A stretch of DNA of 64,000 nt from the human T2T-CHM13v2.0 reference genome, Homo sapiens: assembly GCA_009914755.4 (NCBI GenBank), contig CP068257.2, positions 8,384,001-8,448,000 of the forward strand. Direction: 5' to 3'. The notes under the pieces were generated by a model. It was not told where the DNA came from and made no database searches. It was given only the letters and a program-made list of their open reading frames with translations. Made by a program: the position numbers and the translations under genes. Shown in pieces: positions 1-64,000 of the stretch. The stretch's first letter is position 1; every line of letters begins with the position of its first letter.

Positions 1-1880
1 CCGTTCAAAAATATCCCTTTGCATATTGTACAAAAAGACTGTTTCTAAACTGTCAAATGCAAAGAAAGGTTCAACTCTGTGAGATGAAACCACACATCAC
101 AAAGAAGTTCTTCATAATGCTTCTGTCTGGTTTTTATGTGAAGATATTTCATATTTCACCATAGGCCTCAAAGAGCTCACAAATATCCCTTTGCAGACTC
201 TACAAAAAGACTGTTTTCGAACTGCTCCATGCAAAGAAAGGTTCAACTCTGTGAGACGAATGCACACATAAAAAAGAAGTTTCTCAGAATGCTTCTGTCT
301 AGTTTTTTTGTGAAGATATTTCTTTTTCACCATAGGCATCAAACCATTCAGAAATATCCCTTTGTAGATTGTACAAAAATACTGTTTCCAAACTGTTCAA
401 TCAACAGAAAGGCTCAAACCTGTGAGATGAAAGCACACATCACAAAGAAGTTTCTCAGAATGCTTCTGTCTAGTTTTTATGGGAGGATATTTCTTTTTCA
501 CCATAGGACGCAAACCCCTCAGAAATATCCCTTTGCAGATTGTAGATAAAGAATGTTTCCTAACTGCTCAATCAAAAGAACAGTTAAAGTCTGTGAGATG
601 AAAGCACACATCACAAAGAAGTTTCTCAGAAATCTTCTGTCTAGTTTTTATGTGAAGATATTTCCCTTCTAACGATAGGCCTCAAAGAAATCCAAATATC
701 GATTTGCAGATTCTACAAAATAGTGTTTCCAAACTGCTCAATCAAAAGAAATTTTCAACTCTGTGAGATGAAAACACACATCACAAAGAAGTTCTTCAGA
801 AAGTTTCTCACTAGATTTTATGTGAAGATATTTAGTTTTTCACCACAAGCCACAAAGTGCTCCAAATATCCATTTGCAGATACTTCAAAAAGAGTTTTTC
901 CAAAGTGCTCCAAATATCCATTTGCAGATACTTCAAAAAGAGTTTTTCCAAACTGCTCAATCAAAAGGAAATTTCAACCTGTGAGATGAATGCAAACATC
1001 ACAAAGAAGTTTCTCGGTATGCTTCTGTATAGTTTTTCTGTGAAGATATTTCCCATTTCACCATTGGCCTCAGTGGGCTCACATATATCCTTTTGCATAT
1101 TCTACAAAAGATTGTTTCCGAATTTCTCAATGAAAAGAAAGGTTCATCTCTGGGAGATGAATGCACACATGAATAAGAAGTTTCTCAGAAAGCCTCTGTC
1201 TAGTTTTTGTTTTAAGATATTTATTTTTCACCGTAGGCCTCAAACTGCTCAGAAATATTCCTTTGCAGATTGTACAAAAAGATGGTTTCCAAACTGCTCA
1301 ATGAAAACAAAGGTTCAACACTGTGACATGAATACTCACATCACAGAGAAGTTTTTCAGAAAGCTTCTGTTTAGTTTTTTAAGTGAAAATATTTCCTTTT
1401 TCACCATAGGCCTCAAAGCACTCCAAATATCCTTTTGCAAACTCTACAAAAAGAGAGTTTCCAAACTGTTCAATTAAAAGAAAGATTCAAATCTGTGAGA
1501 AGAAAGTACACATCATGAAGAAGTTTCTCATAATGCTTCTCTCTACTTTTTTTTGTGAAGATATTTCCTATGTCGCCATAGGCCTCAAAGATCTCACAAA
1601 TATCCCATTGCAGATTCTACAAAAAGACAGTTTTTGAACTGCTAAATGAAAAGAAAGGTTCAACTCTGTGAGACGAATGCACACATAATAAATTAGTTTA
1701 TCATAATGCTTCTGTCTAGTTTTTATGTGAAGATATTTCTTTTTCACCATAGGCATCAAACCGTTCAGAAATATCCCTTTGTAGATCGTACAAGAAGACT
1801 GTTTCCAAACTGCTCAATCAAAAGAAAGTTTCAAACTGGTGAGATGAATGAACACATAACAGAGGAGTTTCTCAGGAATC
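1..1880 (-). repeat. Alpha satellite, tandem ~171-bp monomers, antisense to the standard consensus. Monomers are divergent (monomeric-type).
   Basis: Repeated units such as 'ttctacaaaaagactgtttccaaactgctcaatcaaaagaaaggttcaactctgtgagatgaatgcacacatcacaaagaagtttctcagaatgcttctgtctagtttttatgtgaagatatttcc', the reverse complement of the canonical alpha monomer. Period is ~171 bp. Adjacent monomers are ~80% identical. Confidence 0.95.
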
Positions 1881-2331
1881 TTTTTTTTTTTATTTTCATC
1901 ACTTTATTTTACTTTTTTTAAAGTTAGTTTTTTTTTATTTATTATTATTATACTTTAAGTTTTAGGGTACATGTGCACAATGTGCAGGTTTGTTACATAT
2001 GTATACATGTGCCATGCTGGTGTGCTGCACCCACTAACTCGTCATTTAGCATTAGGTATATCTCCCAATTCTATCCCTCCCCCTTCCCCCCACCCCACAA
2101 CAGTCCCCAGAGTGTGATGTTCCCCTTCCTGTGTCCATGTGTTGCTCTCGTTGTTCAATTCCCACCTATGAGTGAGAATATGCAGTGTTTGGTTTTTTGT
2201 TCTTGCGATAGTTTACTGAGAATGATGATTTCGAATTTCATCTATGTCCCTACAAAGTACATGAACTCATCATTTATTATGGCTGCATAGTATTCCATGG
2301 TGTATATGTGCCACATTTTCTTAATCCAGTC
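1881..2331 (-). mobile_element. L1 (L1PA-type) 3' end fragment: ~380 bp of 3' ORF2/3'UTR plus a poly(A) tract with an interspersed A-rich segment.
   Basis: Reverse complement of the L1 3' end: 'tactttaagttttagggtacatgtgcacaatgtgcaggtttgttacatatgtatacatgtgccatgctggtgtgctgcacccactaactcgtc...caattcccacctatgagtgagaatatgcagtgtttggttttttgttcttgcgatagtttactgagaatgatgatttc...ggctgcatagtattccatggtgtatatgtgccacattttcttaatccagtc'. A T-rich run at 1881-1950 is the poly(A). Alpha resumes at 'cttctgtcttgtttttagtg'. Confidence 0.9.
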
Positions 2332-5300
2332 TTCTGTCTTGTTTTTAGTGAACATATTACCTTTCTCAACATAGGCCTCAAAGCAATCCAAACATCCATT
2401 TGCAGACTCTACAAAAAGACTGTTTCCAAACTGATCAATCAAAACAAATTTTTACGTCTGTGAGATGAAAGCACACATCACAAAAAAGTTACTCTGACAA
2501 CTTCTCTCTAGTTTGTATGTGAAGATATTTCCTATTTTAACTGAGGCTATAAAGGGCTCACATATATCCCTTTGAAGGTTCTACAAAAAGACTTTCCAAA
2601 CTGCTCAATCAAAAGAAAGGTTCAACTCTGTGAGATGAATGGACACATCACAAAGAAATTTCTTGGAATGATTCTATCTAGTTTTTATGTGAAGATATTT
2701 CTCTTTCACCATAGGCCTCAAAAGGATCAGAATTATCCCTTTGAAGATTGTACAATAAGCCTCTTTCTAACCTGCTCAATCAAAAGAAAGGTTCAACTCT
2801 GTGAGATGAATGCACACATCACAAGGAAGTTTCTGAGAAAGCTTCTGTTTAGTTTTTATGTGAGGATATTTCGTTTTCCACCATGGGCCTCAATAGCGCT
2901 CAAAATATCCATTTGCAGATTCTAGACAAAGAGTGTTTCCAAACTCCTCAATCAAAAGAAAGTTTCAATTCTGTGAGATGAAAGCACACATCACAAAGAA
3001 GTTTCTTAGAAAGCTTCTTTCTAGTTTTTATGTGAAGATATTTCACATTGCACCATAGTACTCAACACGCTCAGAAATATCCCTTTGCAGATTCTACAAA
3101 AGGGCTGTTTCCAAACTGCTCAATCCAGAGAAAGTTTCAACTATGAGAGATGAATGCACACATCACAAAGAAGTTTCTCAGAATGCTTCTTTCTAGTTTA
3201 TATGTGAAGAAAATTCCTATTTCACCATAGGCAATAAAGGGCTCACAAATATTTTTTTGCAGATTCTACAAAAAGACTGTATCCAAACTGCTCAATAAAA
3301 ATAAAGTTTCAACTCTGTTAGATTAATGGACACATCAAAAAGTAATTTCTCATAAAATTTCTGTTTAGTTTTTATGTGAGGATATTTCCTTTGTCACCAT
3401 TGGCCTCAAAGCACTCCTAATATCCATTTACAGATATCACAAAAAGAATGTTTCCAAACTGCTCAATCAAAAGAAAGTTTTAACTCTGTGAGATGAAAGC
3501 ACACATCTCAAAGAACTTTCTCAGAAAGCTTTGGTCTAGTTTTCATGTAAAGATATTTCCAGTTTCACCGTAGGCCTCAAAGGGCTAAGAAATATCCCTT
3601 TCCAGATTCTAAAAGACAACCATTTCCATACTGCTCAATCAAAAGAAAGCTTAAATTCTGTGAGGTGAATGCACACATCAGAATGAAGTTTCTCAGAATT
3701 CTCCTGTCTAGTTTTTATGTGACAATATTTACTATGTCACTATAAGCTTCAAATGTCTCAAAAATATCCCTTTGCAGATTCTACAAAAATATGGTTTCAA
3801 AAGTGTGAATTAAAAGAAACCTTCAACTCTGTCAGATGAATGAAGACATCACAAAGAAGTTCCTCAGAATGCTTCTGTCTAGTTTAAATGTGAAGATATT
3901 TCTTTTTCACATAGACCTCAAATGGCTCAGAAATACACCTTTGCAGAATGCAGGAAAAGACTGTTTCTAAACTGCTCAAACAAAATAAAGTTTCAACACT
4001 GTGAGATGAATGCACACATCACAAAGAAGTTTCTCAGAAATCTTCTGTCTAGCGTTTATCTCAAGATAATTCCTATTTTGCCATAGGAATCAATGTGCTC
4101 ACAAATATCCCTTTGCAGATTCTACAAAAGTTCTGTTTCCAAGCTGCTCAATCAAAAGAAACGTTCAACATTGTGAGATGAATGCACACATCACAAAGAA
4201 GTTTCTCAGAATGCTTCTGTCTGGTTATTATGTGAAGATACTTCCTTTTTCACCATGGGCCTGAAAACACTCTAAATATCCACTTGCAGATTCTACAAAA
4301 AGAGTGTTTTCAAACTGCTCAATGAAAAGAAAGGTTTAATTCTGTGAGATGAAAGCACACTTCACAAAAGTGTTTCTTAGAAACCTTCTATCTAGTTTTT
4401 ATGTGAAGATATTTCATATTTAAAAATAGGTCTCAATGGGCTCAAAAATATGCTCTTACAGATGCTACAAAAAGAGTGTTTCCAAAAAGCTCAATCAAAA
4501 TAAAGGTTTAACACTGTAAGATAAATGCACACATTACAAAGAAGTCTCTCAGAATTCTTCTGTATAGTTTTTTTGAGAAGCCACTTCTTTTTTCACTATA
4601 AGCCTGTCTGCTCACTAATAGCCCTCTGCAGATACTACAAAATACTCTTTCCAAACTGCTCAATCAAAATAAAGGTTCACATCTGTGAGATGAAAGCCCA
4701 AGTCACAAAGAACTTTCTCAGAAAGTTTCCGTCTAGTTTTTATGTGAAGATATTTCCTATTTCTCCTTAGGCCTCAAAAGGATCACAAATATCCCTATTC
4801 AGATTCTACAAAAAACTGTTTCCAAACTGCTTCATCAAAAGAAAGGTTCAATTCTGTGAGATCAATGCATACATACAAAATTAGTTTCTCAGAATGCTTC
4901 TGTCTAGTTTTTATGTGAAGTTATTACTTTTTCACCATAGGTCTCAAACTGCAAACAAATATTCCTTTGCAGATTGCACAAAAAGTATGTTTCCACACTG
5001 CTCAATGAACAGAAAGGTTCAACTCAGTGAGATGAATGCAAACATCACAAAGAGTTTTCTCAAAATGCTTCTGTCTAGGTTTTAGGTGAAGATATTTACT
5101 TTTTCACCATAGGCCTCAAACTGCTCACAAATATCCCTTTGCAGTTTCTACAAAACGACTTGTTGCCAAACTGCTCAATGAAAGGCAAGGTCCAAATCTG
5201 TGAGATGAAAGGACACATCACAAAGAAGTTTCTCAGAAAGTTTCTGTCTAGTTTTTAAATGCAGATATTTTCTTTTTCACTATAGGCCTCAAAGCACTCC

Positions 5301-8300
5301 AAATATCCGTTTGCAAGTTCTACAAAAAGAGTGTTTCCAAACTGCTCAATCAAAAGAGAGGTTCAACTCTTTGTGGTGAAAGCACACAGCACAAAGAAGT
5401 TTTACAAGAAGCTTCTGTCCAGTTTTTATGTGAAGACCTTTCCTATTTCACCATAGGTCCCAATGGGCTCACAAACATCCCTTTGCAGATTCTACAAAAG
5501 AATTCTTTCCAAACTGCTCAATCCATGGAAAGTTTCAACTCTGTGACATGAATGCACACATCACAAAGAAGTTTCTCAGAATGCTTCTGTCTAGTTTTTA
5601 TGTGAAGAAATTTCTTGTTCACCATAGGCCTGAAATGCTGCAAATATCCATCTTCAGATTCTACAAAAAGAATGTTTCCTAACTGCTCAATCAAAAGAAA
5701 AGTTCAACTCTGTGAGACGAAAGCACACAACACAAAGAAGTTTCTCTGAAAGCTTCTGTCTAGTTTTTTTGTGAAGATATTCCCTATTTCACCATAGTCC
5801 TGAAAGGGCTCACAAATATCCCTTTGCATATTATACAAAAAGACTGTCCCCAAACTGCTCAATCAAAAGAAAGTTTCAACTCTGTGTGATGAATGCACAC
5901 ATTACAAAGAAGTTTCTCAGAATGCTTTTGCTAGTTTTTATATGAAGATATTTCTCTTTCACAGTAGGCCTCAAATGGCTCAGAAATATCCCTTTGCAGA
6001 TTGTACAAAAAGACTGTTTCCAAACTGCTCAATCAAAAGAAAGTTTCAACACTGTGAGATGAATGCACACATCACAAAGAAGTTTCTCAGAATGCTTCTG
6101 TTAAGATTTCATGTGAAGATATTTCCTTTTTCACCATAGGCCTCAAAGGGCTCAGAAGTATTACTTTGTAGATTCTACAAAAGGTCGGTTTAGAAAACTG
6201 CTCAATCCAAAGAAAGGTTCAACTCTGTGAGATGAATGCACACATCTCAAAGAAGTTTCTCACAATGGATCTGTCGAGGTTTTCTGTGAAGATATATCCT
6301 TTTTAACCATAGGCCTTAAACTGCTCATGAATATCCCTCTGCAGATACTACAAAAAGACTGTTTCCAAACTGCTGCATCCAAAGAAATGTTCAACTCTGT
6401 GATATGAATACACACATCACAAAGAAGTTTCTCAGAATGCTTCTGTCTGGTTTTTATGTGAAGATATTTCCTATTTCACCATAGGCTGTAAAGGGCTCAC
6501 AAATATCCGTTTGCATATTCTAAAAAAAAGACTGTTTCCAAACTGTTCAAACAAAAGAAAGGTTCAACTCTGTGAGATGAATGCACACATCAGAAAGAAG
6601 TTTCTCAGAATGCTTCTGCCTGGTTTTTATGTGAAGATATTTCCTTTTTCAGCATAGGACTCAGTGGGCTCAGAAATATCCCTTTGCAGGTTCCACAAAA
6701 GGACTGTTTAGAAAACTGCTGAATCCAAAGAAAGATTCAGCTCTGTGAGATGAATACACACATCACAAAGAAGTTTTGCAGAATGCATCTGTCTAGTTTT
6801 TATGGAAAGATATTTCTTTTTTCACCATAGGCCTCAAAGTGCTCCAAATACCCATTTGTAGATTCTACAAAAAGAGTGTTTCCAAACTGCTCAATCAAAA
6901 GAAAGGTTCAACCTTGTGACACGGAAGTAAACATCACAAAGTAGTCTCTCAGAAAGCTTCTGTCTATTTTTTATGTGATGATATTTCCTATTTCACCATG
7001 GGCCATATAGGGCTCACAAATTTTTTTTGCAAATTCTACAAAAAGACTGTTTCCAAACTGCTCAATCCAAAGGAAGTTTCAACTCTATGAGATGAATGGA
7101 CACACCACAAAAAAGTTTATCAGAATGCTTCTATCTACTTCTTATGTGAAGACATTTTTTTTTCACCCTAGTCTTCAATGGGCTCAGAAATATCCCTCCT
7201 TTGTAGATTCTACAAAAGGACTGTTTCCAAACTGCTCAATCAAAGAAAGGTTCAACTCTATGAGATGAATGCACACATCACATAGATGTTTCTCACAATC
7301 CTTCTGTCTATTTTTTATGTGAAGGTATTTCCTTTTTCACCATAGGCCTCCAAGCACTCCAAACATCCACTTGCTGATTCCACAAAAAGACTGTTTCCAA
7401 ACCCCTCATTCAAAAAAGGATTCAACCGTATGAGATGAATGCACATATCACAGAGATGTTTCTCACAATGCTTCTGTCTATTTTTTATGTGAAGGTATTT
7501 ACTTTTTCACCATAGGCCTCAAAGCGCTCCAAACATCCATTTGCTGATTCCGCAAAAAGACTGTTTCCAAACTGCTCAATCAAAAGAAAGGTACAACTCC
7601 GTGTGTTGAAAGCACACATCACAAAGAAGTTTCTCAGAAAGCTTCTGTCTAGTTTTTCTTTGAGGATATTTCCTGTTTCACCATGGGCCATAAAGGGCTC
7701 AAAAATATTTTTCACAGATTCTACAAAAAGACTGTTTCCAAACTGCTCAATCCAAAGAAAGTTTCAACTCTGTGAGGTGAATGGACACAAGACAAAGAAG
7801 TTTCTCAGAATACTTCTGTCTAGGGTTTATGTGAGATATTTCCTTTTTCACCATAAGCCTCAAAGTGCTCCAAATATCCATTTGCAGATTCCACAAAAAG
7901 ACTGTTTCCAAGTTGCTCAATGAAAAGAAAGTTTCAACTCTGTGAGGTGAAAGCACACATCACAAAGAAGTTTCTCAGAAAGTATCTTTCTAGATTTTTT
8001 GTGAAGATATTTCCTTTTTCACCATAGGCCTCAAATCACTCCAAGTATCCATTTGCAGATTCTACCAAAAGATTGTTTACAAAATGCTAAATCAAAATAA
8101 AGTTTCAGCTCTGTGATGTGAATGCAGGCATCACAAAGGAGTTTCTCAGAAAGATTCTGTTTAGTGTTTATCTGAAGGTATTTCCTTTTTCTCCATAGAC
8201 CTCAAAGCTCTCCAAATATGCATTTCCAGATTCTATAAAAAGTCTGTTTCCAAACTGCTCAATGAAAAGAAAGGTTCAACTCTGTGAGATGAAAGCACAT

Positions 8301-10159
8301 ATCACAAGGAAGTTTCTCAGAATGTTTCTTTCTAGTTTTTTTTGGAAGATATTTCCTTTTTCACCATAGGCCTCAAAGCACTCCAAATATCCATTTGCAG
8401 ATTCTACAAAAAGACTGTTTACAAACTGCTCAATCAAAAGAAGTTTTCAACACTGTGAGATGAATGCACACATTACAAATTAGTTTCCCAGAAAACTTCT
8501 GTTTAGTTTTTATGTGAAGATATTTCCTTTTTCACCAGAGGCCTCAAAACACTCCAATTATCCATTTGCAGATTATGCAAAAAGAGTATTTCCAAACTGC
8601 TCATTCAAAAGAAACACTTAACTCTTTGAGATGAAAGCACTCATTAAAAATAAGTTTCTCAGAAAGCTTCTGTCTAGCTTTTATGTGAAGATATTTCCAA
8701 TATCACCAAAGGCCTCAATCGGCTGAGAAGTACCCCTTTGGGGATTCTACAATAGGACTGTTTCCAAACTGCTCTAGCAAAGGAAAGGTTCAACTCTGTG
8801 AGATGAATGCACGCATCACTAAAAGGTTTCTCAGAAAATTTCTGTGTAGTTTTTATGTGAAGATATTTCCTACTTCACCCTAGGCCTCAAAGGGTTCACA
8901 ATTATCCCTTTGTAGATTTTACAAAAAGACTGTTTCCAAATCTTCAATCAAAGAAATGTTCAAATGTGTGAGATGAATGCAAACCTCACAAAGAAGTTTC
9001 TCAGAATTCTTCCATCGAATTTTTATGTGATGATATTTCCTTTTTTACCATAGGCCTCAATATGCTCCAAATATACATTTGCAGATTCTACAAAAAGAGT
9101 GTTTCCAAACTGCTCAATCAAAAGAAAAGTTCAACTCTGTGAGATGGAAGCACACATCACAAAGAAGTTTCTTAGAAACCTTCTGTCTCGTTTTTATGGG
9201 AAGATATTTCGTATTTCACCATAGGCCTCAATGGGCTCAGAAATATACCTTTGCAGATTCTACAAAAAGATTGTTTACAAACTGCTCAATCCAAAGACAG
9301 GTTCAACACTCTGAGATTAATTCACACATCACAAAGAAGTTTCTCAGAAAGCTTCTGTCTAGTTTTTATGTGAAGATATTTCCTTGCTCACCATAGGCCT
9401 CAAACTGCTCACAAACATCCCTCTACAGATACTACAAAAAGACTGTTACCAAACTGTTCAATCAACAGAAGGGTTCAACTCTGTGTGGTAAATGCACACG
9501 TCACCAAGAAGTTTCTCAGAATGCTTCTGTCTAGTTTTTATGTGAAGATATTTCCTTTCTCATGAAGGCCTCAAACCACTCCAATTATCCATTTGCAGAT
9601 TCTACAAAAGATGGTTTCCAAACTACTCAATGAATAGAAAGGTTCAACTATGTGAGATGAAAGCACACATCACAAAGAAGTTTCATAAAATGTTGCTTTC
9701 TAGTTTTTAAGTGAAGATATTTCCTTTTTCACCATAGTCCTCAAAGTGCTCCAAATATCCATTTGCAGATTCTATAAAAAGTGTGTTTTCAAACTGCTCA
9801 ATCAAAAGAAAGGTTCAACTCTGTGAGATGGAAGCACACATCACAAATAAGTTTCCAGAAATCTTCTGACTAGTTTTTATATGAAGATATTTCCTATTTC
9901 ACCATGGACCTCAATGAGCTCACAAATATCCCTTTGCTGATTCTACAAAAGGACTGTTTTGAAACTGCTCAATGAGAAGAAAGGTTCAACTCTGTGAGAC
10001 GAATGCATACATCACAAAGAAGTTTCTCAGAATGCTTCTGTCTAGTTTTTAGGTGAAGATATTTTCTTTTTCACCATAGGCCTCAAAGTGCTCACAAATA
10101 TCTCCTTGCAGATTCTACAACAACAGAGTATCCAAATTGATTAATCAAAAGAATGTTTC
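2332..10159 (-). repeat. Alpha satellite, divergent ~171-bp monomers (continuation).
   Basis: Continuous alpha monomers with the same motif set as 1-1880. No other insertions noticed. Confidence 0.95.
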
Positions 10160-51642: not shown

Positions 51643-51852
51643 TTTTTTTTTTGCCTTTCATTTTGTATACTTTATTTATTTTTTAATTTTTAATTTTGGT
51701 GGGTACTTAGTAGATATATATATTTATGGATATATGAGATGTTTTGATACAGGCATGCAGGGCATAACAATCACAGCATGGAAAATAGACTATCCATTCC
51801 CTCAAGTATTTATTATCCTTTGTGTTACAAACATCCAATTATACTCTTCTAG
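51643..51852 (-). mobile_element. L1PB/L1MA-like 3' terminus (~190 bp, same orientation as the SVA) ending in its own poly(A) (poly-T at 51643-51652). Interpreted as an SVA 3' transduction.
   Basis: 'ggtgggtacttagtagatatatatatttatggatatatgagatgttttgatacaggcatgcagggcataacaatcacagcatggaaaatagactatccattccctcaagtatttattatcctttgtgttacaaacatccaattatactcttctagtt' resembles the antisense of the 3' end of older primate L1s. Its minus-strand 3' end is A-rich with AATAAA-like signals ('...aaaattaaaaattaaaaaataaataaag...'), followed by (a)10-11, then alpha. Confidence 0.6.
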
Positions 51853-53616: not shown

Positions 53617-56600
53617 TGAACCTTTCTTTTGAAGGACGAGTTTTGAAATACTCTTTTTGAAGAATCTGCAATTGGACATTTCGAGATCCTTGAGGCATGT
53701 GGTGGAAAAGGAAATATCTTCGCATAAAAACTAGGCAGAAAACTTCTGAGAAACTTCTTTGTGATTTGTGCATTCATCTCACAGAGGTAAACGTTTCTTT
53801 TGATTGAGCAGTTTGGAAACACTCTTTTTGTAGAATCTACAAGTGGACATTTGGAGCGCTTTGCAGCCTATGGTAGAAAAGGAAATATCTTCACATAAAA
53901 TCTAGACAGTAGCAATCTGAGGAACCCCTTTGTTATGTGTGCATTCATCTCCCAGAGATAAACCTTTCTTTTGATTGAGCAGTTTTGAAACTCTTTTTGT
54001 AAAATCTGCAAGTGGACATTTTGAGCACTTTGAGGCCAAAGGTGGAAAAGGAAATATCTTCACATAAAAACTAGAGAAAAGAATTTTGAGAAACTTGTTT
54101 GTGATGAGTGGGTTCAACTCATGGTGTTGAACCTTCCTTTTGATTGGGCAGTTTTGAAAATCTCTTTTTGTAGAATCTGCAAGTGGACATTTGGAGTGCT
54201 TTGCAGCCAATGGTAGGAAAGAAATATCTTCATATAAAATCTAGACAGAAGCAATCTGAGAAATTTCTTTCTGATGTGTTCCTTCCTCTTACAGAGTTAA
54301 AGCTTTTTTTTTTTGAATGAGCAGTATTGAAACTCTCTTTTTGTAGTATCTACAAGTGGACATTTGGAGCTTTTTGAGGCCTATTTTGGAAAAGGTAATA
54401 TCTTCACATAAAAACTAGACAGAAGAATTCTGACAAAGTTCTTGGCGATGTGTGCATTCGGTCTCACAGATTTCAACCTTTCTTTTGATTGAGCAGTTTG
54501 GAAACAGTCTTTTTGTAGAATTTGCAAGTGGAGATTTGGAGCTCTTTGCGGCCTATGGTAGAAAAGGAAATAACTTCACATAAAATCTAGACAGAAGCAA
54601 TCTGAGAAACTTCCTTGTGATGTGTTCATTTATCTCACATAATTAAACCTTTCTTTGGATTGAGCAGTTTTGAAACTCTCTTTTTGTAGAATCTGTAATT
54701 GGACATTTGGAGCACTTTGAAGTCTATGGTGAAAAAGGAAATATCTTCACATGAAAACCAGATAGAAGCATTCTGAGAAACTTTTTTGTGATGTGTGCAT
54801 TCATATCTCAGAGTTGAAGGTTTCTTTTAAATGACCAGTTTTGAAATCCTCTTTTTGAAGTATCTGCAAGTCGACATTTCGAGCACCTTGAGGCGTATGG
54901 TGGAAAAGGAAATATCTTCACATAAAATCTAGACAGAAGCAATCTGAGAAACTTCCTTGAGATGTGTTCATTTATCTCACAGTGTTAAACCTTTCTTTTG
55001 ATTGAGCAGTTTTGAAAATCTCTTTTTGTGGGATCTGCAAGAGGACATTTGAAGCTCTTTGAAGCCTATGGTGGAAAAGGAGATATCTTCACATAAAAAC
55101 CGGATAGAAGCATTCTGAGAAACTTCTTTGAGATGTGTGTATTCATCTCCCAGTGTTGAACATTTCTTTTGATTGGACAGTTTTGAAACTCTTTTTGTAG
55201 AATATGTAAGAGGATATTTGGAGAGCTTAGAAGTCAATGGTTGAAATGGAAATAACTTCACATAATAACTACACAGAAGCATTCTAAGGAACTTGTTTGG
55301 GATTTGTGCATTCATCTCACATAGTTGAACCTATCTTTTGATAGAGCAGTTTGGTAACTCTCTTTTTGTGGTATCTGCAACTGGATAATTGGAGCCCTTT
55401 GCAGCCAATGTTGGAAAAGGGAACATCCTCACATAAAAACTACACAGAAGTATTCTGAGAAACTTCTTTGTGATGTGTGTATTCATCTCACAGAGGTGAA
55501 TATTTCATTTGATTGAGCAGTTTTCAAACACTCTTTTTGTAGAATCTGCAAGTGTATAATTGGAGCGCTTTGAGGCCTATTGTTGAAAAGGAAATATCTT
55601 CACATAAAAAGTACACAGGAGCATTCTCAGGAACTTCTTTTTGATGTGAGCATTCATCTCACAGTATTGAAACTTTCATTATATTGAGCAGTTTGGAAAC
55701 ACTCTTTTAATAGAATCTGCAAGTGGATATTTGGAGCCCTTGGAGGCCTATTGGGGAAAAGGAAATATCTTCTCATAAAAACTACACAGAAGCATTCTGA
55801 GAAACTGCTTTTTGATGTGTGCATTCAAACCACATAGTTGAATTTATCTTTTGATAGAGCAGTTTTGAAACTCTCTTTTTGTAGAATCTGCAAGGGGATA
55901 TTTGGAGCTCTTTGTGGCCTATTGTGGAAAAGGAAATAACTTCACAGAAAAATTACACAGAAGCATTCTCAAAAACCTCTTTGTTTTGTGTGCATTCATC
56001 TCTCAGAGTTGAACTTTTCTTTTGATAGAGCAGTTCTGAAAATCTTTTTGTAGGATCTGCAAGTGGATAATTGGAGAGCCTTGAAGTGTATGGTGGAAAT
56101 TGAAATATCTTCACATAAAAAATACACAGAAGCATTCTGAGAAATTTGTTTGGGATGTGTGCATTTATCTCACAGAGTTGAACCTATCTTTTGATAGAGC
56201 AGTTTTGAAACTCTCTTTTTGTAGAATCTGCAAGGGGATATTTGGAGCCCTTTGAGGCCTATGGTGGAAAAGGAAATATCTTTATATAAAAACTACACAG
56301 AAGCATTCTGAGAAACTTCTTTGGGTTGTGTGCATTCTTCTCACAGAGGTGAAACTTTCATTTGATTGAGCAGTTTTCAAACACTCTTTCTGTGGAATCT
56401 GCAAGGATATAATTGGAGTGCTGTGAGGCCTATTGTGGAAAAGGAAACATCTTCACATAAAAACTACACAGAAGCATTATCAGAAACTTCTCTGAGATGT
56501 GTGTATTCATCTCACAGTGTTGAAAATTTCTTTTGATTGAGCAGTTTGGAAGCAATCTTTTTGTAGAATCTGCAAGTGGATATTTGGAGCCCTTGGAGGC

Positions 56601-59600
56601 CTAACGTGGAAAAGGAAATATCTTCACATAAAAACTACATAGAAGCATTCTGAAAAACTTCTTTGTGATGTGTGCATTCGTCTCACAGAGTTGAAACTTC
56701 CTTTTGATTGAGTAATTTTGAATCTCTCTTTTTGTAGAATCTGCAAGTGCATATTTAGAGGACTTGGAGGCATATGGGGGAAAAGGTAATATCTTCACAA
56801 AAAAATAAGCAGAAGCATTCTGAGAAACTTCTTTGTGATGTGTGTATTCATCTCACAGAGTTGAAACTATCTTTTGATAGGGCAGTTTTGAAACTCTCTT
56901 TTTGTAGAATCTGCAAGGGGATATTTGGAGCCCTTGTGACCCATGGTGGAAAAAGAAATATTTTAACAAAAAAACTGCATGGAAGCATTCTGAGAAACTT
57001 CCTTGTGATGTGTGTTTTCATCTCACAAAGTTGAACCTTTCTTTTGATTGAGCAGTTTGGAAACACTCTTTTCATAGAATCTGCACGTGGATATTTGGAG
57101 GGCATTTTGGCCAATGGTGGAAAAGGAAATATCTTCACATAAAAACTACAGAGAATTACTCTGATAAACTGCTTTTGATGTGTGCATTCAATTCAGAGTT
57201 GAACCTATCTTTTGTTAGAGGAGTTTTGAAACTGTCTTTTTTTGGAGTCTTCATGTGGATATTTGGAGCCCTTTGAGGCCTATGGTGGAAAAGGAAATAT
57301 CTTCTCATAAAAAGTACACAGAAGCATTCTGAGAAACTTCTTTGTCATGTGTGCATTTAGCTCACATATTTGAACCTTTCATTTGATTGAGGAGTTTTGA
57401 AACACTCTTTTTGTAGAATCTGCAAGTGGATATTTGCAGGGCTTTGGGGACTTTTGTAGAAAAGGAAACATACTCACATAAAAATTAACAGAAGTGTTCT
57501 CAGAAACTTCTCTGTGATGTGTGCATTCATCTCACAGAGTTGAACCTTTCTTTTAATTGAGTAGTTTTGAAACACTCCTTTTGTAGAATCTGCAAGTGGA
57601 TATTTGGTGTGCTTAGAGGCCTATGGTGGAAAAGGAAATAGCTTCACATAAAAACAACATGGAAATATTCTGAGAAACTTCGTTGTGATGTGTGTATTCA
57701 TCTCACAGAGTGGAACCTTTCTTTTGATTGAGTAGTTTTGAAACTTTCTTTTTGTAAAATCTGCATGTGGTTATTTGGAGCCCTTTGTGGCCAATGGACG
57801 AAAAGGAAATATGTACCCCTAAAAACTACACAGAAGCATTCTGAGAAACTTCTTTGTTTTGTATGCATTCATCTCATGGTGTTAAAGTTTCTATTGTTTG
57901 AGCAGTTTTGAGACACTCTTTTCGCAGAATCTGCAAGTGGATATATGGAGCGCTCTGAGGCCTATGGTGGAAAGGAATATACCTTCACATAAAAACTACA
58001 CAGAAGGATTCTGAGAAACTTCTTTGTGATGTGCGCATTCAACTTGCAAAGTTGAACTTATCTTTTCATATAGCAGTTTTGAAACAGTCTTTTTGTAGAA
58101 TCTGTGTGTGATTATTTGCAGCCCTTTGTGGCCAATGGTGGAAAAGGAAATGTCTTTCTCTAAAAACTACACAGAAACATTCTGAGAAACTTTTTTGTGA
58201 TGTGTATATTCAGCTCACAGAGTTGAACCTTTCATTTGATTGAGTAGTTTTGAAACACTCTTTTTGTAGAATCTGCAATTGGAAATTTGGAGCGCTTTGT
58301 CACCTAATGTGGAAAAGGTAATATCTTCACATACAAACTACACAGAAGATTCTGAGACACTTCTTTGTTTTGTGTGCATTCATCTGACAGAGTTGAACCT
58401 ATCTTTTTTTTGAGCAGTTTTGAAACTCTCTTTTTGTAGAATCTGCAAGTGGATATTTGGAGCCCTTTGTGGTCTATGGTGGAAAAGGATATATCTTCAC
58501 ACAAAAACTACACAGATGCATTTTGAGAAACTTTGTTGTGATTTGTGCATTCATCTCACAGAGTTGAAACTTTCTTCTGATTGAGCAGTTTGGAAACACT
58601 CTTTTCATGGAATCTTCAAGTGGATATTTGGAGCACTTTGAAGTCTATTGTGGAAAATGAAATATCTTAACATAAAAACTACAGAGAAGCATTCTGAGAA
58701 ACTTCTTTGTGATGTGTGCATTCAAATCACAGAGTAATATGTCTTTTGATAGAGCAGTTTTGAAACTGTCTTTATGTAAAATGTGCAAGTGGATATTTGG
58801 AGCCCTTTTTGGCCAATGGTGGAAAAGGAAATATCTTTCCCTAAAACTACACAAAGCATGCTTAGAAACTTCTTTGTGATGTGTGCACTCATCTCACACA
58901 GTTGAACCATTCTTTTGATTGAGCAGTTTGGGAAAATTCTTTCAGTAGAAATGCAAGTGAACATTTGGAGCCCTTGGAGCCCTATTGTATAAAAGTAAAT
59001 ACCTTCACTTAAAAACTACACAGAATCATTCTGAGAAACTTCTTTGTGATGTGTGCATTTCCTCACAGAGTTGATACTTTCTTTTGATTGAGCAGTTTTA
59101 AAACACTCTTTTTGTAGAATCTGGAAGTGTATAGTTGGTGCACTTAGAGGCCTATGGTGGAAAAGGGAATATCTTCACATAAAAACAACACAGAAGCATT
59201 CTGAGAAACTTCGTTCTGATGTGTGCATTCATCTCACAGAGTTGAATCTTTCTTTTGATTGAGCAGTTTTGGAACTTTCTTTTTGTAAAATCTGCATGTG
59301 GTTGCTTGGAGCCCTTTGTGGCCAATGGAGGAAAAGGAAATATGTTCCCCTAAAAACTACACAGAAGTATTCTGGGAAAATTCTTTGTAATGTGTGCATT
59401 CATCTCACAGTGTTAAATTTTGTATTGTTTGAACAGATTTGAGACACTTTTTTCACAGAATCTGCAAGTGGATATATGGAGCGCTTTGAGGCCTATGGTG
59501 GAAAGGGATATATCTTCACATAAAAACTACACAGAAGGATTCCGAGAAATTTCTTTGTGATGTGTGCATTCAACTCGCAGCATTTTACCGATCTTTTGAT

Positions 59601-62600
59601 ATAGCAGTTTTGAAACAGTCTTTTTGTAGAATCTGTGTGTGATTATTTGGAGCCCATTGTGGCCAATGGTGGAAAAAGAAATATCTTCCTCTAAAAACTA
59701 CAGAAACATTCTGAGAAACTTCCTTGTGATGTATACATTCAGCTCACAGAGTTGAACCTTTCATTTGATTGAGTAGTTTTGAAACACTCTTTTTGTAGAA
59801 TCTGCAATTGGAAATTTGGAGTGTTTTATCGCCTAATGTGGAAAAGGTAACATCTTCACATACAAACTACACAGAAGGATTCTGAGACACTTCTTTGTTT
59901 TGTGTGCATTTGTGTCACAGGGTTGATCCTTTCTTTAGACTGAGCAGTTTTGAAACACTCTTTTTGTAGAATCTGCAAGTGGTATTTGAGCACGTTGAGG
60001 CCTCTTGTGGAAAAGGAAATATCTTCACATAAAAATTACACAGAAGCATTCTGAGAAACTTCTTTGTGATGTGTCCATTCCTCTTAGGGTAGAACCTTTG
60101 TTTTGATTGAGCAGTATTGAGACACTCTTTTTGTAGAATCTGCAATTGGATATTTGGAGCGTTTTGAGTCCTATTGTGGAAAAAGAAATATCTTCCCCTA
60201 AAAACTAAACAGAAGCGTTCTGAAAAACTTCTTAGTGATGTGTGAATTGAACTCACATAGTTGAACCTATCTTTTGATAGAGCAGTTTTGAAACTCTTTT
60301 TGTAGAATCTGCAACTGGATATTTGGAGCCGTTTGTGGCCAATGGTGGAAAAGGAAATATCTTCACATAAAAACTACACAGAAGCATTCTGAGAAACTTT
60401 TTGTGATGTGTGCATTCAATTCACAGTGTTGATCCTATCTTTTGATACAGCAGTTTTGAAATTCTCTTTTTGTAGAATCTTCAAGTAGATATCTGAAGCT
60501 ATTTTTGGCCTAAGGTGGAAAAAAAAATCTTCACATAAAAACTACATAGAAGCATTCTGAGAAACTTTTTTGTGATGTTTGCATTCAACTCACAGTGTTG
60601 AAGCAGTCTCTTGATAGAGCAGTTTTGAAACTCTCTTTTGGTAGAATCTGCAAGTGGATATTTGGAGCCATTTGCACCTATGATGGAAAAGGAAATATCT
60701 TCACACAAAAACCACACAGAAGCATTCTGAGAAACTTCGTTGTGATATGTGCATTCATCTCAAAAATTTGAACGTTTCTTTTGATTGAGCACTTTTGAAA
60801 CACTCTTTGAGTAGAATCTGCAATGGGATATTTGGAGCGCTGTGAGGCCTATGGTGGAAAAGGAAATATCTTCACATAAAAACAACACAGAAGCTTTCTG
60901 AGAAACTTCTTTGTGATGTGTGCATTCAACTCACAGAGTTCAACCTATCTTTTTATAGAGCCGTTTTGGAACTCTCTTTTTGTAGAATCTGTAAGTGGAT
61001 ATTTGGAGCCCTTTGATGCCTATGTTGGAAGAGGAAATATCTTCACATAAAAACTACAGTGAAGCAATCTGAGAAACTTCTTTGTGATGTGAGCATTCAA
61101 CTCAAAGAGTTGAACCTATCTTTTGTTAGAGCAGTTTGGAAACCTCCTTTTTGTAGAATCTGCAAGCGGATATTAAGAGCCCTTTGCAGAGTATAGAGAA
61201 AAAGGAAATATCTTAACAAAAAAACTACACAGGAGCATTCTGAGAAAGTTCTTTGTCGTGTGTGCATTCAACACACAGAGTTGAACATATCTTTTGATAG
61301 GGCAGTTTTGAAGCTCTCTTTTTGTACAATCTGCAAGTGGATATTTGGAGCCCTTTGGGGCCTTTGGTGGAAATGGCAACATCTTCACATAAAAAGCACA
61401 CAGAAGCATTCAGAGAAACTTCTATTATTGTGGGCATTCATCTCACAGAGGTGAAACTCTCTTTTGATTGAGCAGCTTGGAAACACTCTTTTTGTAGAAT
61501 CTGCAAGTAGATATATGAAGCGCTTTGAGGCCTATTGTGGAAAAGGAAATATCTTCACAGAAAAACTACACAGAAGCATTCTGTGAAAATTCTTTGTGAT
61601 GTGTGCATTCATCGCACAGAGTTGCACCTTTCAATTCATTGAGCATTTTTAAAAATCTTTTTGTAGAAGCTGCAAGTGGATACAAGGAGTGCATTGAGGC
61701 CTATGGTGGAAAAGGAAATATCTTCATATAAAAACTTCACAGAAGCATGCTGACAAACTTCTTTGTGATGTGTGCATTCATCTCACAGAGTTGAAACTTT
61801 CATTTCATAGAGCCGTTTTGAAACACTCTTTTTGTAGAATCTGCAAGTGGATATTTTGAGTGCTTTGAGGTCTATGGTGGAAAAGGAAATATCTTCATAT
61901 AAACACTATGCAGAAACATTCTGAGAAACTTCTTTGTGATGTGTGCACTCATCTCATAGTGTTGAACCTATCTTTTTATATAGCAGTTTTGAAACTCTTT
62001 TTGTAGAATCTGCAAGAGGATATTTGTAGCCCTTTGCTGCCTATTGTAGAAAAGGAAATATCTTCTCATAAACATTACACAGAAGCATTCTGAGAAACTT
62101 CTGTCTGATGTGTGCATTCAGCTCACAGAGTTGAACCTATCTTTTCATAGAGCAGTTTTGAAACTCTCTTTTTGTAGAATCTGCAAGTGGATGTTTGGAG
62201 CCCTTTGCGGCCTGTTGTAGAATAGAAAATATCTTCACATCAAAACTGCACAGAAGCATTCTGAGAAACTTCTTTGTGATGTGTGCATTCAACTCACAGA
62301 GTTGAATCTTTCAGTTGATTGAGCAGTTTTGAAACACTCTTTTTGTAGAATCTGCAATTGGATATTTGGAGTGCGTTGAGGCCTATTGTGGAAAAGGGAA
62401 TAATTTCTCATAAAAGGTACACAGAAGCTTTCTCAGAAAGCTCTTTGTTTTGAGTGCAGTCATCTCACAGACTTGAAATTTCTTTTCATTGAGCAGTTTT
62501 GAAACACTCTTTTTGTATAATCTGCACGTGGATATTTGGAGCACTTTGAGGCCTATGGTGGAAAAGGAAATATCTTCACATAAAAACTACACAGAAGCAT

Positions 62601-63705
62601 TCTGAGAAAATACTTTGTGATGTGTGCATTCATATCACAGAGTTGAACCTGTCTTTCGATAGAGCCATGTTGAAATTCTCTTTTTGTACAATCTGCAAGT
62701 GGATATTTGGAGTCCTTTGTTGCCTGCTGTGGAAAAGGAAATACATTCTCTTAAAAGCTGCAGAGAAGCATTCCGGGAACATTCTTTGTGATGTGTGCAT
62801 TGATTTCACAGAGTTGAAGCTTTCTTTTGATTGAGTAGTTTTGAAACACTGTTTTCGTAGAATCTGCAAGTGGATATTTAGAGCGTTTTGAGGCCTATGG
62901 AGGAAAAGGACATATCTTCACATAGAAACTACCCAGAAGCATTCTGTGAAACTTCTTTGTGATGTTTGCATTCAACTCGCAGAGTTGAACCTATCTTTTG
63001 ATAGAGCAGTTTGGAAACTCTCTTTTTATAGAATCTGCATGTGGTTATTTTGAGACATTTGTGGCCGATGGTGGAAAAGGAAATATCTTTCCCTAAAAAT
63101 TACAGAGAAGCATTCTGAGAAACTTCTTTGTTATGTGTGCATTCATCTCACAGAGCTGAACTTTTCATTTGATTGGGCAGTTCTGAAACACTCTTTTTGT
63201 AAAATCTGCAATTGGATATTTGGAGCACTTTGAGACCTATTGTGGAAAAGGAAATATCTTCATATAAAAACTACACAGAAGCCTTCTCAGAAACGTCTTT
63301 GTGATGTGTGCATTCATCTCACAGTGTTGAACCTTTATTTTGATTTAGCAGTTTGGAAACACTGTTTTAGTAGAATCTGCAGCTGGATATTTGGAGCCCT
63401 CAGAGCCATATTGTGGAAAAGGAAATATCTTCATATAACAACTACACAGAAGCATTCTGAGAAACTTCTTTTTGATGTGAACATTCATCTCACAGAGTTC
63501 AACCTTTCTTTTGATTGAGCATTTTGAAACTCTCTTTTTGTAGAATCTGCAAGTGGATAATTGGAGTGCTTTGAGGCCTATGATGGAAAAGTAAATATCT
63601 TCTCATAAAAACTACACAGAAGCATTATGAGAAACTTCTTTGTGATGTGTGCATTCATCTCACAGAGTTGAACCTATCTTGTGATACAGCAGTTTTGAAA
63701 CTTTC
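53617..63705 (+). repeat. Alpha satellite monomers (sense orientation). Two recurring monomer flavours, loosely alternating. No CENP-B box seen.
   Basis: The flavours differ at '...ttgaacctatcttttgatagagcagttttgaaactctctttttgtagaatctgcaagtggatatttggagccctttg...' versus '...ttgaacctttcttttgattgagcagtttggaaacactctttttgtagaatctgcaagtggatatttggagcgctttgaggcctatggtgg...'. All carry 'ctatggtggaaaaggaa' (pJalpha-type). Confidence 0.9.
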
Positions 63706-64000
63706 TTTTTTTTATTATACTTTAAGTTTTAGGGTACATGTGCTCATTGTTCAGGTTTGTCACACAAGTATACATGTGCCATGCTGGTGCGCTGCACCCA
63801 CTAACTCGTCATCTAGCATTAGGTATATCTCCCAATGCTATCCCTCACCCCTCACCCCACCCCACAACAGTCCCCAGAGTGTGATATTCCCCTTCCTGTG
63901 TCCATGTGATCTCACTGTTCAATTCCCACCTATGAGTGAGAATATGTGGTGTCTGGTTTTTTGTTCTTGCGATAGTTTACTGAGAATGATGATTTCCAAT
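63706..64000 (-). mobile_element. L1PA-type 3' end (poly(A) plus 3'UTR, minus strand), truncated by the window edge.
   Basis: 'ttttttttattatactttaagttttagggtacatgtgctcattgttcaggtttgtcacacaagtatacatgtgccatgctggtgcgctgcacccactaactcgtcatctagcattaggtatatctcccaatgctatccctc...caattcccacctatgagtgagaatatgtggtgtctggttttttgttcttgcgatagtttactgagaatgatgatttccaat'. Confidence 0.9.

What the first reader, a model, noticed from the sequence alone, without database searches (positions are those of the whole stretch)
1..64000. Alpha satellite flanks an HSat3 block in opposite orientations (alpha(-) | HSat3 | alpha(+))
Alpha monomers at 1-12105 are the reverse complement of those at 48141-63705. The two blocks are not mirror copies. 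The left block is divergent monomeric alpha, and the right block has more homogeneous, loosely dimeric monomers. The L1 fragments near both outer edges are both minus-strand, so this is not a simple inverted duplication. Both alpha/HSat junctions are abrupt with 3-5 bp microhomology ('gat' at 12105, 'tggag' at 48140). That pattern suggests non-homologous end-joining or an insertion-type origin of the HSat3 array between two alpha layers, or an inversion breakpoint. Strand switches are useful landmarks for pericentromere evolution.
Basis: seen in the sequence. Interest (0 to 1): 0.5.

Follow-up and report, generated by a model that had tools for sequence, protein, structure and literature searches.

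The report
Known acrocentric alpha–HSat3–alpha junction module
This is an ordinary, already annotated piece of the short arm of human chromosome 21 (T2T-CHM13), where a 36-kb HSat3 block sits between an older and a younger layer of dead centromeric alpha satellite that point in opposite directions. The same module is copied on the other acrocentric chromosomes and on chromosome 20.

Summary
All 63 alpha-satellite hits at 9–12105 are on the minus strand and all 82 at 48136–63709 are on the plus strand. Between them lie 36,035 bp of HSat3 with GGAAT on the + strand throughout.

The flanks are two different monomeric alpha families. The left one is the 172-bp type, consistent with SF6/Ha. The right one is the 171-bp, A-box-only type, consistent with SF4/Ga.

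Eight landmarks (HSat3 boundaries, three L1s, L1MA2 piece, SVA) match the published T2T-CHM13 v1.0 annotation of chr21p to within about 6 bp: mon_21_2 | hsat3_21_12(A4) | mon_21_3. The published strand-switch table implies the same −/+ arrangement.

At least seven paralogous copies (chr13, 14 twice, 15, 20, 21, 22) keep the same flanks. Their HSat3 length ranges from 9 to 157 kb.

Both junction sequences occur in independent metagenome contigs that are 92–99% identical to the window, so they are old shared junctions and not assembly joins.

Inferred microhomology is 3 bp at the left junction and 5–6 bp at the right. That is somewhat more than chance and fits a microhomology-mediated non-homologous join.

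Strand switches occur about 17 times per Mb in divergent alpha satellite, so this is a known kind of feature and of low interest.

The parts
1..1875 (-). Monomeric alpha satellite, left block (172-bp type, SF6/Ha-like), first part
   Evidence: nhmmer hits are all on the minus strand. No higher-order repeat: lag identities are flat at about 0.81.
1876..2330 (-). L1 3' end fragment with poly(T) leader (published as L1PA3, 399 bp)
   Evidence: Sequence read. Opposite in orientation to the L1 at 10161. Table S15 has chr21 9122946–9123345 L1PA3 '-'.
2331..10160 (-). Monomeric alpha satellite, left block, main part
   Evidence: Across the left block, 31 of 58 monomers carry an extra base after consensus position 111/112, against 1 of 78 in the right block. 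All are A-type.
10161..11333 (+). L1 3' fragment with ORF2 C-terminus and poly(A) (published as L1PA4, 1126 bp), flanked by a target-site duplication of about 12 bp (AAGAATGKTTCA)
   Evidence: Sequence, translation and strand. Table S15 has chr21 9131173–9132299 L1PA4 '+'. The same element lies about 0.8 kb from an HSat3 edge in many paralogs.
11334..12105 (-). Last 772 bp of the left alpha block. The junction monomer keeps consensus positions 146–171 only.
12103..12105 (.). Left junction microhomology GAT
   Evidence: Alpha continues as ...GTGAAGAT|ATTTCC in other monomers. Inside the HSat3 block the motif GTGGAT|CGGAGTG(C/G)AGTGG recurs 9 times. The junction is identical in L001–L004.
12106..48140 (+). 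HSat3 array, 36,035 bp, with GGAAT on the + strand throughout. Divergent, with no clean long-period unit. Published as hsat3_21_12(A4).
   Evidence: Table S1 gives 36,055 bp when measured between the last and first full alpha monomers.
34640..48020 (+). Sub-block of HSat3 whose units include an amplified fragment of an Alu 3' end (about 60–75 bp, 11 copies), with local duplications at offsets of 0.67, 1.3 and 4.3–5.3 kb
48141..48146 (.). Right junction microhomology TTGGAG (alpha consensus positions 110–115, and also the end of the common HSat3 motif GTGGATTGGAG)
   Evidence: GTGGATTGGAG occurs 31 times inside the block. The junction is identical in L005–L010.
48141..51642 (+). Monomeric alpha satellite, right block (171-bp, A-type, SF4/Ga-like), first part
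51643..53614 (-). SVA_C (about 51890–53614) with its poly(A) tail (51853–51889), followed by an L1MA2-like piece of about 200 bp (51653–51852) and a second poly(A) (51643–51652). Flanked by TGAACC(TTT).
   Evidence: Sequence. Table S15 has L1MA2 '-' 167 bp 'adjacent to SVA_C, properly in Ga' and SVA_C '-' 1740 bp.
53615..63705 (+). Monomeric alpha satellite, right block, main part. Contains an old duplication of about 9 monomers (57667–58348 and 59197–59877).
63706..64000 (-). L1 3' end with poly(T) leader that runs off the window (published as L1PA2, 694 bp)
   Evidence: Table S15 has chr21 9184714–9185408 L1PA2 '-'.

Best explanation
The window is proximal chr21p of T2T-CHM13, at about chr21:9,121,013–9,185,012 in v1.0 coordinates. 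It holds one copy of an old pericentromeric module. An older dead-centromere alpha layer (SF6/Ha type, minus strand) and a younger one (SF4/Ga type, plus strand) are separated by an HSat3 tract of subfamily A4. Nothing here encodes a function. The interest lies in how the arrangement arose.

The likely history has three steps.
1. An HSat3 tract became joined to alpha satellite on each side by two non-homologous, microhomology-assisted joins (GAT on the left, TTGGAG on the right). This happened at or next to the border between two alpha layers, one of which was inverted relative to the other. The order of inversion and HSat3 arrival is not known.
2. L1PA4, L1PA3, SVA_C and L1PA2 elements then inserted into the flanks.
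3. The whole module was copied, in both orientations, by the segmental duplications and ongoing exchange that link the short arms of chr13, 14, 15, 21 and 22 and the chr20 pericentromere. During this time the HSat3 tract grew or shrank in pentamer register by slippage or unequal exchange. Its length now ranges from 9 to 157 kb between unchanged junctions.

Shown directly: strands, families, junction sequences, their presence in diverged copies, the conserved flanks, and the variable HSat3 length. Inferred: the joining mechanism and the order of events.
For: **Locus identity.** With one offset (window position 1 = chr21 9,121,013), the annotated HSat3 start and end, L1PA3, L1PA4, L1MA2, the SVA_C start and end, and L1PA2 all fall within about 6 bp of features seen in the window. 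The chr13 paralog misses by 40–98 bp.

**Strand and family in the published annotation.**
- Table S6 has an Ha/Ha '+/-' switch 5.8 kb left of the window.
- It has a Ga/Ga '+/-' switch 8.4 kb right of the window.
- This implies Ha(−) ... HSat3 ... Ga(+).
- A curator's note places the L1MA2/SVA 'properly in Ga'.

**Independent family tests here.**
- 53% of left monomers carry the extra base, against 1% of right monomers. Mean period is 171.3 bp on the left and 170.2 bp on the right. This matches the 172/171-bp criterion that separates SF6 from SF4.
- All monomers are A-type.
- The oldest L1 on the left is PA4. Within the window the right block has only an L1PA2, plus an SVA_C with its attached L1MA2 piece. 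This fits L1 dating of the two layers (Table S3).

**Age and sharing of the junctions.** The left junction occurs in 4 contigs and the right in 6 contigs that are 92–99% identical to the window.

**Paralogs.** Seven copies keep the flank distances:
- Ha/Ha switch to HSat3: 16.5–18.1 kb.
- HSat3 to Ga/Ga switch: 24.3–28.1 kb.
- HSat3 length: 9.2, 24.7, 36.06, 36.07, 58.4, 102.3 and 157.3 kb.

**Array dynamics.** Indels between paralog contigs and the window inside HSat3 are mostly 5, 10, 15, 20 or 25 bp.

**Microhomology.** It exceeds the random-join expectation: P = 0.05 on the left and 0.004–0.01 on the right.

Against: - The parental sequences at the breakpoints are lost. The microhomology lengths therefore rest on the alpha consensus and on recurring HSat3 motifs. 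TGGAG is very common in this HSat3 (1,626 copies in 36 kb).
- The order of events (inversion first, HSat3 first, or one complex event) is not constrained by anything in the window.
- I could not align to any assembly. The chr21 assignment rests on landmark spacing in published tables, and chr13 differs by only tens of bases.
- The Ha and Ga labels for the window itself are inferred from neighbouring table rows plus one length criterion. They are not from HumAS-HMMER.
- The single published marker 24-mer for HSat3A4 has no exact match in the block.
Confidence: 0.75

Rival explanations
1. A pre-existing strand switch: SF6(−) and SF4(+) alpha already abutted head to head after an earlier inversion, and an HSat3 seed was later inserted or amplified exactly at that border. 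This is an insertion-type origin in which the HSat3 is not involved in the inversion.
For: Published work says layer borders are abrupt and are places where other tandem repeats amplify. Alpha-to-alpha strand switches with gaps of 0–250 bp are very common in these same blocks. The HSat3 has one polarity throughout.
Against: The two alpha ends do not meet in phase: consensus position 146 on the left and 110 on the right. Both show microhomology to HSat3 and not to each other. Nothing else separates this from the main explanation. It is a variant in the order of events.
Confidence: 0.25
2. A single simple inversion inside one continuous alpha array, with HSat3 seeded at the breakpoint afterwards.
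For: The alpha on the two sides has opposite polarity.
Against: The flanks are different families. There are six near-diagnostic columns, and nearest neighbours fall in the same block for 131 of 136 monomers. The extra base occurs in 53% of left monomers against 1% of right. TE ages differ between the sides.
Confidence: 0.07
3. An inverted duplication (fold-back or palindrome) whose arms are the two alpha blocks and whose spacer is the HSat3.
For: The ← HSat3 → geometry. Inverted copies of the alpha–L1PA4–HSat3 edge do exist elsewhere in the same region, for example the start of mon_21_1 against the end of mon_21_2.
Against: The arms are only 79% identical, which is the background level between any two alpha monomers. 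No block-to-block alignment exists. TE content and L1 orientation are not mirrored.
Confidence: 0.03
4. An assembly artefact: a false join of alpha and HSat3 contigs.
For: Satellite-rich acrocentric arms are hard to assemble.
Against: Both junctions are found in independent short-read metagenome assemblies. The same architecture is annotated on seven loci in CHM13.
Confidence: 0.01

Closest known systems
T2T-CHM13 cenSat annotation chr21: mon_21_2 | hsat3_21_12(A4) | mon_21_3 (Altemose et al., bioRxiv 10.1101/2021.07.12.452052, Tables S1, S6, S15)
   Same: HSat3 length between full alpha monomers is 36,055 bp in the table and 12078/81–48135 in the window. L1PA3(−) 399 bp, L1PA4(+) 1126 bp, L1MA2(−)+SVA_C(−) 1740 bp and L1PA2(−) all sit at the same spacing. 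The Ha and Ga classes and strands implied by Table S6 also agree.
   Different: Nothing detectable. The paper does not single out this junction, and Table S6 lists only alpha-to-alpha switches with gaps up to about 250 bp. The switch across the HSat3 is therefore implicit and not tabulated.
Paralogous modules on chr13 (hsat3_13_10), chr14 (hsat3_14_18 inverted, hsat3_14_21), chr15 (hsat3_15_8), chr20 (hsat3_20_2) and chr22 (hsat3_22_20)
   Same: Same flanking strand switches at the same distances. Where the TE rows were read, the same L1s: L1PA4 about 0.8 kb from the HSat3 edge on chr13, 15, 20 and 21; the 399-bp L1PA3 on chr13, 15 and 21; the L1P1/L1PA3 pair on chr14 and 22. Same HSat3 subfamily label. 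The contigs with identical junctions at 92–99% identity are probably from these loci.
   Different: HSat3 length ranges from 9.2 to 157 kb. The SVA VNTR length differs (1803 bp on chr13, 1740 bp on chr21). One chr14 copy is inverted, in keeping with the known inversion of the SST1-centred homology region on 14p.
pTRS-47-type satellite III of chromosomes 13, 14 and 21 'contiguous with alpha satellite DNA' (Vissel, Nagy & Choo 1992, as cited in PMC4022460, where pTRS-47 is overlaid on HSat3A4 in the text, although the Figure S3 legend pairs the clones the other way round)
   Same: An acrocentric HSat3A4-class array directly abutting alpha satellite.
   Different: I could not read that paper or compare its clone sequence. 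Whether the cloned junction is this one is unknown.
Layered-expansion and 'segment cut-off' models of centromere flanks (Shepelev et al. 2009, PMC2729386; Altemose et al.)
   Same: An older SF6 layer and a younger SF4 layer lie side by side with an abrupt border. They are interrupted by another tandem repeat and an inversion, with L1 ages tracking layer age.
   Different: On the acrocentric arms these layers are not in place around the active centromere. They lie inside dispersed segmental duplications, so symmetry around a core cannot be read here.

Membership tests
Monomeric (non-HOR) alpha satellite | Tandem monomers of about 171 bp that match the alpha consensus | tested here: met
   145 nhmmer hits, 136 of them near full length. 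Identity to consensus is 85.7% (left) and 88.4% (right).
Monomeric (non-HOR) alpha satellite | No higher-order periodicity: monomers about 70–85% alike at every lag | tested here: met
   Lags 1–20 are flat at 0.80–0.81 (left) and 0.82–0.83 (right). No self-alignment of at least 300 bp at 88% or more.
Alpha SF6 (Ha / V1) for the left block | 172-bp monomer lacking the 1-bp deletion, with a minority of 171-bp monomers mixed in irregularly (Shepelev 2009 Text S1; Altemose Table S4 '172+171') | tested here: met
   The extra base after consensus position 111/112 is in 31 of 58 left monomers and 1 of 78 right monomers. Mean spacing is 171.3 bp against 170.2 bp. The published fraction of the long form is about 3/4; here it is about 1/2.
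Alpha SF6 (Ha / V1) for the left block | Assignment by the class-specific HMMs (HumAS-HMMER) | not testable with these tools
   The HMMs are not available. Table S6 gives an Ha/Ha switch 5.8 kb left of the window in the same mon block.
Alpha SF4 (Ga / M1) for the right block | 171-bp monomers, A-type only, monomeric | tested here: met
   No CENP-B box anywhere in the window. A curator's note says 'properly in Ga' and there is a Ga/Ga switch 8.4 kb further right.
   78 of 78 right-block monomers are closer to the A box. The even-lag excess is only 0.4 points.
Human satellite 3 | Diverged (GGAAT)n / (CATTC)n pentamer array | tested here: met
   TRF period 5, 7,085 copies, 70% matches. 146–192 GGAAT per 3 kb, all on one strand.
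HSat3 subfamily A4 | Subfamily-specific 24-mers (Altemose 2014) | tested here: inconclusive
   Only the single commonest 24-mer per subfamily was available. There were 0 exact matches for any subfamily. With up to 2 mismatches: A2 53, B5 39, A4 19, A1 8. The A4 label comes from the published annotation.
Microhomology-mediated end joining / template-switch junction | A few bases shared by both parents at the breakpoint, with no long homology and no filler | tested here: inconclusive
   3 bp on the left and 5–6 bp on the right, with parents inferred from consensus and recurring motifs. Null P = 0.05 and 0.004–0.01. The true parental sequences are unknown.
Simple inversion within one array | The same sequence family on both sides of each breakpoint | tested here: not met
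   The two sides are different families.
Acrocentric / chr20 pericentromeric segmental duplication | The same ordered landmarks at several loci with high identity | tested here: met
   Landmark spacing is shared by seven CHM13 loci. Junction-bearing contigs are 92–99% identical to the window.

The most novel reading that the evidence does not exclude
The HSat3 arrival or inversion at this spot could be the actual 'cut-off' event that removed the SF6 (Ha) array from homogenisation and let the remaining array evolve into SF4 (Ga). The junction pair would then be a datable molecular fossil of a centromere-layer transition. The published tables are compatible with the neighbouring HSat3(A4) islands on these arms also having alpha pointing away from them. 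If so, that might reflect repeated inverted-duplication cycles and not independent insertions.
Probability: 0.1. Interest if true: 0.35.

Novelty: already known. Interest (0 to 1): 0.1.

Why it matters
It matters little beyond bookkeeping. The locus is already annotated in T2T-CHM13. Strand switches, TE insertions and foreign satellite blocks are the expected decay features of dead alpha layers.

Two modest points are useful:
- The two exact junction sequences are conserved across paralogs whose HSat3 tract varies 17-fold. They are therefore fixed anchors for measuring HSat3 array dynamics and for tracing the duplication history of acrocentric short arms.
- Because the module is multi-copy, it is not a unique mapping landmark.

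Tried and rejected
- **Scans of bacterial/archaeal genome contigs.** Both junctions gave no hits.
- **Viral contig scan.** The right junction gave no hits.
- **Exact look-up of the 128-aa minus-strand ORF** that touches the right junction: not on record. The 50-aa plus-strand ORF worked.
- **HSat2/3 subfamily marker 24-mers** from Altemose 2014 Table 1: no exact match for any subfamily, so I could not confirm A4 independently.
- **Self-BLAST of the HSat3 block.** Megablast at 85% or more and 600 bp or more found nothing. Sensitive blastn timed out. I replaced it with a rare-k-mer bin matrix, which showed only modest local duplications in the right third.
- **PMC9233505** (journal version of Altemose et al.) is not held. 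I used the bioRxiv version and its supplement.
- **chr13 paralog as the source.** Considered and rejected because its SVA, L1PA2 and HSat3-end landmarks are 40–98 bp off.
- **SF5 for the right block.** Considered and rejected because there are no B-type monomers.
- **Alpha class consensus sequences.** Shepelev 2009 holds them only as images, so no class-level alignment was possible.
Full report
**1. What is in the window**

A 171-bp alpha-satellite consensus was searched by BLAST and by nhmmer. It gives 63 hits at 9–12077, all on the minus strand, and 82 hits at 48136–63709, all on the plus strand. A 28-bp partial monomer carries the left block to 12105.

Between the blocks, 12106–48140 is a pentameric array: TRF reports period 5, 7,085 copies and 70% matches. 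GGAAT is on the + strand in every 3-kb bin and ATTCC never occurs. GC skew jumps from about −0.13 to +0.8 and back to +0.15 at the two borders.

The alpha blocks are interrupted by:
- an L1 3' end on the minus strand at 1876–2330;
- an L1 3' fragment on the PLUS strand at 10161–11333;
- a minus-strand SVA at about 51643–53614;
- another minus-strand L1 3' end from 63706 to the end of the window.

The plus-strand L1 close to the left junction and the SVA were not mentioned.

**2. The two alpha blocks are different families, and neither is a higher-order repeat**

- Mean pairwise identity is 81.0% within the left block, 81.7% within the right block and 79.1% between them. Identity is flat across lags 1–20 in both blocks.
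- For 131 of 136 monomers the nearest neighbour lies in the same block.
- Consensus columns 74, 81, 102, 103, 135 and 164 are strongly differentiated. Position 135, for example, is A in 95% of left monomers and G in 92% of right monomers.
- An extra base after consensus position 111/112 is present in 31 of 58 left monomers and 1 of 78 right monomers. Mean monomer spacing is 171.3 bp on the left and 170.2 bp on the right. This is the criterion Shepelev et al. give for separating SF6 (172 bp, with a minority of 171 bp mixed in) from SF4 (171 bp). Altemose Table S4 likewise lists Ha as '172+171' and Ga as '171'.
- All 136 monomers are A-type and there is no CENP-B box. This excludes SF5-type A/B dimers.
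'More homogeneous' is 81.7% against 81.0%.

**3. Where it comes from**

The supplement of Altemose et al. (bioRxiv 10.1101/2021.07.12.452052) holds the CHM13 v1.0 cenSat, strand-switch and TE tables. On chr21 they list mon_21_2 (to 9,133,092), hsat3_21_12(A4) (9,133,092–9,169,147, 36,055 bp) and mon_21_3. The TEs listed are L1PA3(−) 399 bp, L1PA4(+) 1126 bp, L1MA2(−) 167 bp 'adjacent to SVA_C, properly in Ga', SVA_C(−) 1740 bp and L1PA2(−) 694 bp.

With the single offset window 1 = chr21 9,121,013, these land at window positions:

| Feature | Window position from the table |
|---|---|
| HSat3 | 12081–48135 |
| L1PA3 | 1935–2333 |
| L1PA4 | 10162–11287 |
| L1MA2 | 51689–51855 |
| SVA_C | 51871–53610 |
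| L1PA2 start | 63703 |

Each is within about 6 bp of what I see in the window. The annotated HSat3 limits are the last and first full alpha monomers, which is why 36,055 differs from my 36,035. The chr13 paralog (hsat3_13_10, 36,072 bp, SVA 1803 bp) misses the HSat3-end, SVA-end and L1PA2 landmarks by 40–98 bp. The window is therefore most likely CHM13 chr21p.

Table S6 has an Ha/Ha '+/-' switch at 9,115,225, which is 5.8 kb left of the window. It has a Ga/Ga '+/-' switch at 9,193,428, which is 8.4 kb right of it. The published annotation therefore already implies Ha(−) | HSat3 | Ga(+).

The region lies in the homology domain shared by 13p and 21p and inverted on 14p. The chr14 copy at hsat3_14_18 is indeed in reverse order.

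**4. It is a multi-copy, old module**

Seven CHM13 loci keep the same flanks, on chr13, chr14 (two copies), chr15, chr20, chr21 and chr22:
- The Ha/Ha switch (gap about 70 bp) lies 16.5–18.1 kb before the HSat3.
- The Ga/Ga switch (gap 20 bp) lies 24.3–28.1 kb after it.
- L1PA4 of about 1.13 kb lies about 0.8 kb from the HSat3 edge on chr13, 15, 20 and 21, the loci whose TE rows I read that far.
- HSat3 length is 9.2, 24.7, 36.06, 36.07, 58.4, 102.3 and 157.3 kb.

The left junction 26-mer is present in four metagenome contigs, which are human DNA in metagenome assemblies. They are 93–98% identical to the window. A 50-aa ORF spanning the right junction is encoded identically in eight contigs. 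The six that were read are 92–99% identical to the window, and the junction itself is base-for-base the same.

These identities are too low for alleles, so the contigs are probably paralogs. Both junctions therefore predate the duplications and are not assembly joins. Within HSat3, indels between these contigs and the window are mostly 5, 10, 15, 20 or 25 bp. That is the signature of slippage or unequal exchange in pentamer register.

**5. The junctions**

*Left.* Alpha reads ...TTTTATGTGAAGAT and would continue ATTTCC. The window continues CGGAGTGCAGTGGAATGG. Inside the HSat3 block the motif GTGGAT|CGGAGTG(C/G)AGTGG recurs nine times. The inferred HSat3 parent therefore shares GAT with alpha.

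*Right.* HSat3 reads ...GCAGTGGAGTGGATTGGAG, and GTGGATTGGAG occurs 31 times in the block. Alpha is certain from TTGGAGCACTTTGAGG, which corresponds to consensus positions 110 onward. TTGGAG (48141–48146) therefore belongs to both.

*Chance expectation.* Simulated random joins between the same sequences give P(≥3 bp) = 0.05 for the left junction. For the right junction they give P(≥5) = 0.010 and P(≥6) = 0.0036. This favours microhomology-mediated joining or template switching over blunt joining. It rests on inferred parents, however, and TGGAG is very common in this satellite.

*Phase.* The alpha ends do not meet in phase (positions 146 and 110) and belong to different families. A simple insertion into one array and a simple inversion within one array are both excluded.

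**6. Most likely history**

An HSat3 tract was joined non-homologously on both sides to alpha satellite, at or near an SF6/SF4 layer border where one layer was inverted. Retroelements then accumulated. L1PA4 is the oldest on the SF6 side. On the SF4 side the window holds only an L1PA2, plus an SVA_C with its attached L1MA2 piece. This fits the published L1 dating of these layers.

The module was later spread and kept similar by the duplications and exchange that link the acrocentric short arms and chr20. The HSat3 tract changed length during that time.

The right third of the tract (34.6–48.0 kb) carries an amplified Alu 3' fragment and some 0.7–5-kb local duplications. The rest does not, so the tract is itself composite. 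The order of inversion and HSat3 arrival remains open.

**7. Comparison with what is known, and verdict**

Altemose et al. state that divergent alpha is known to contain many inversions. They count 256 in 15.2 Mb, or 16.85 per Mb, which is about one per 59 kb and so about one expected in a window of this size. [quoted passage not shown] A satellite III of chromosomes 13, 14 and 21 contiguous with alpha satellite was reported in 1992, as cited.

The feature is real. It is nevertheless an annotated, multi-copy and expected kind of structure.

Novelty: already known. Interest: low.

Noticed in passing
window 51643-53614: The minus-strand SVA_C has its own poly(A) tail (51853–51889). Downstream of that lies an L1MA2-like piece of about 200 bp (51653–51852) and then a second poly(A) (51643–51652). 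The whole is flanked by TGAACC(TTT) on both sides. This looks like an SVA 3' transduction that carried a fragment of an old L1. The published table only remarks 'L1MA2 adjacent to SVA_C'.
   Followed up: partly
L003 (OJMB01000979.1) 1-1883 vs window 10161-12105: This contig has the exact left junction and 772 bp of matching alpha (overall 97.8%). It lacks the L1PA4 at the corresponding site, and the alpha further upstream is only about 82% identical to the window. It is either a paralog that never received the L1 or a chimeric short-read assembly.
   Followed up: partly
window 34640-48020: A fragment of an Alu 3' end (about 60–75 bp: GAGCTGAGATTGTGCCACTGCACTCCAGCCTGGG...GAGATCCTGTC plus an A-rich tail) occurs 11 times. 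It is always on the + strand and only in the right third of the HSat3 block. Local duplications there have offsets of 0.67, 1.3 and 4.3–5.3 kb. The HSat3 tract is therefore composite.
   Followed up: partly
window ~852-950: A tandem duplication of about 50 bp lies inside one left-block alpha monomer (AAAGTGCTCCAAATATCCATTTGCAGATACTTCAAAAAGAGTTTTTCC, twice). It shows up as two overlapping partial HMM hits.
   Followed up: no
window 57667-58348 and 59197-59877: An old duplication about 9 monomers apart in the right alpha block. Monomer pairs are 91–95% identical against a background of 82%.
   Followed up: no
CHM13 v1.0 chr21 8,905,724-9,133,092 (outside the window; published tables): The alpha island to the left of this HSat3 block starts with an inverted copy of its own end. 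L1PA4(−) of 1136 bp lies 812 bp after hsat3_21_11, and L1PA4(+) of 1126 bp ends 793 bp before hsat3_21_12. The same pairing appears on chr13, 14, 15 and 22. In the tables, the neighbouring HSat3(A4) blocks also appear to have '+' alpha on their right and '−' alpha on their left.
   Followed up: partly
window 10161-11333 flanks: The plus-strand L1PA4 fragment is bracketed by a target-site duplication of about 12 bp of alpha sequence (AAGAATGTTTCA / AAGAATGGTTCA). It is an ordinary retrotransposition into alpha that already existed.
   Followed up: no
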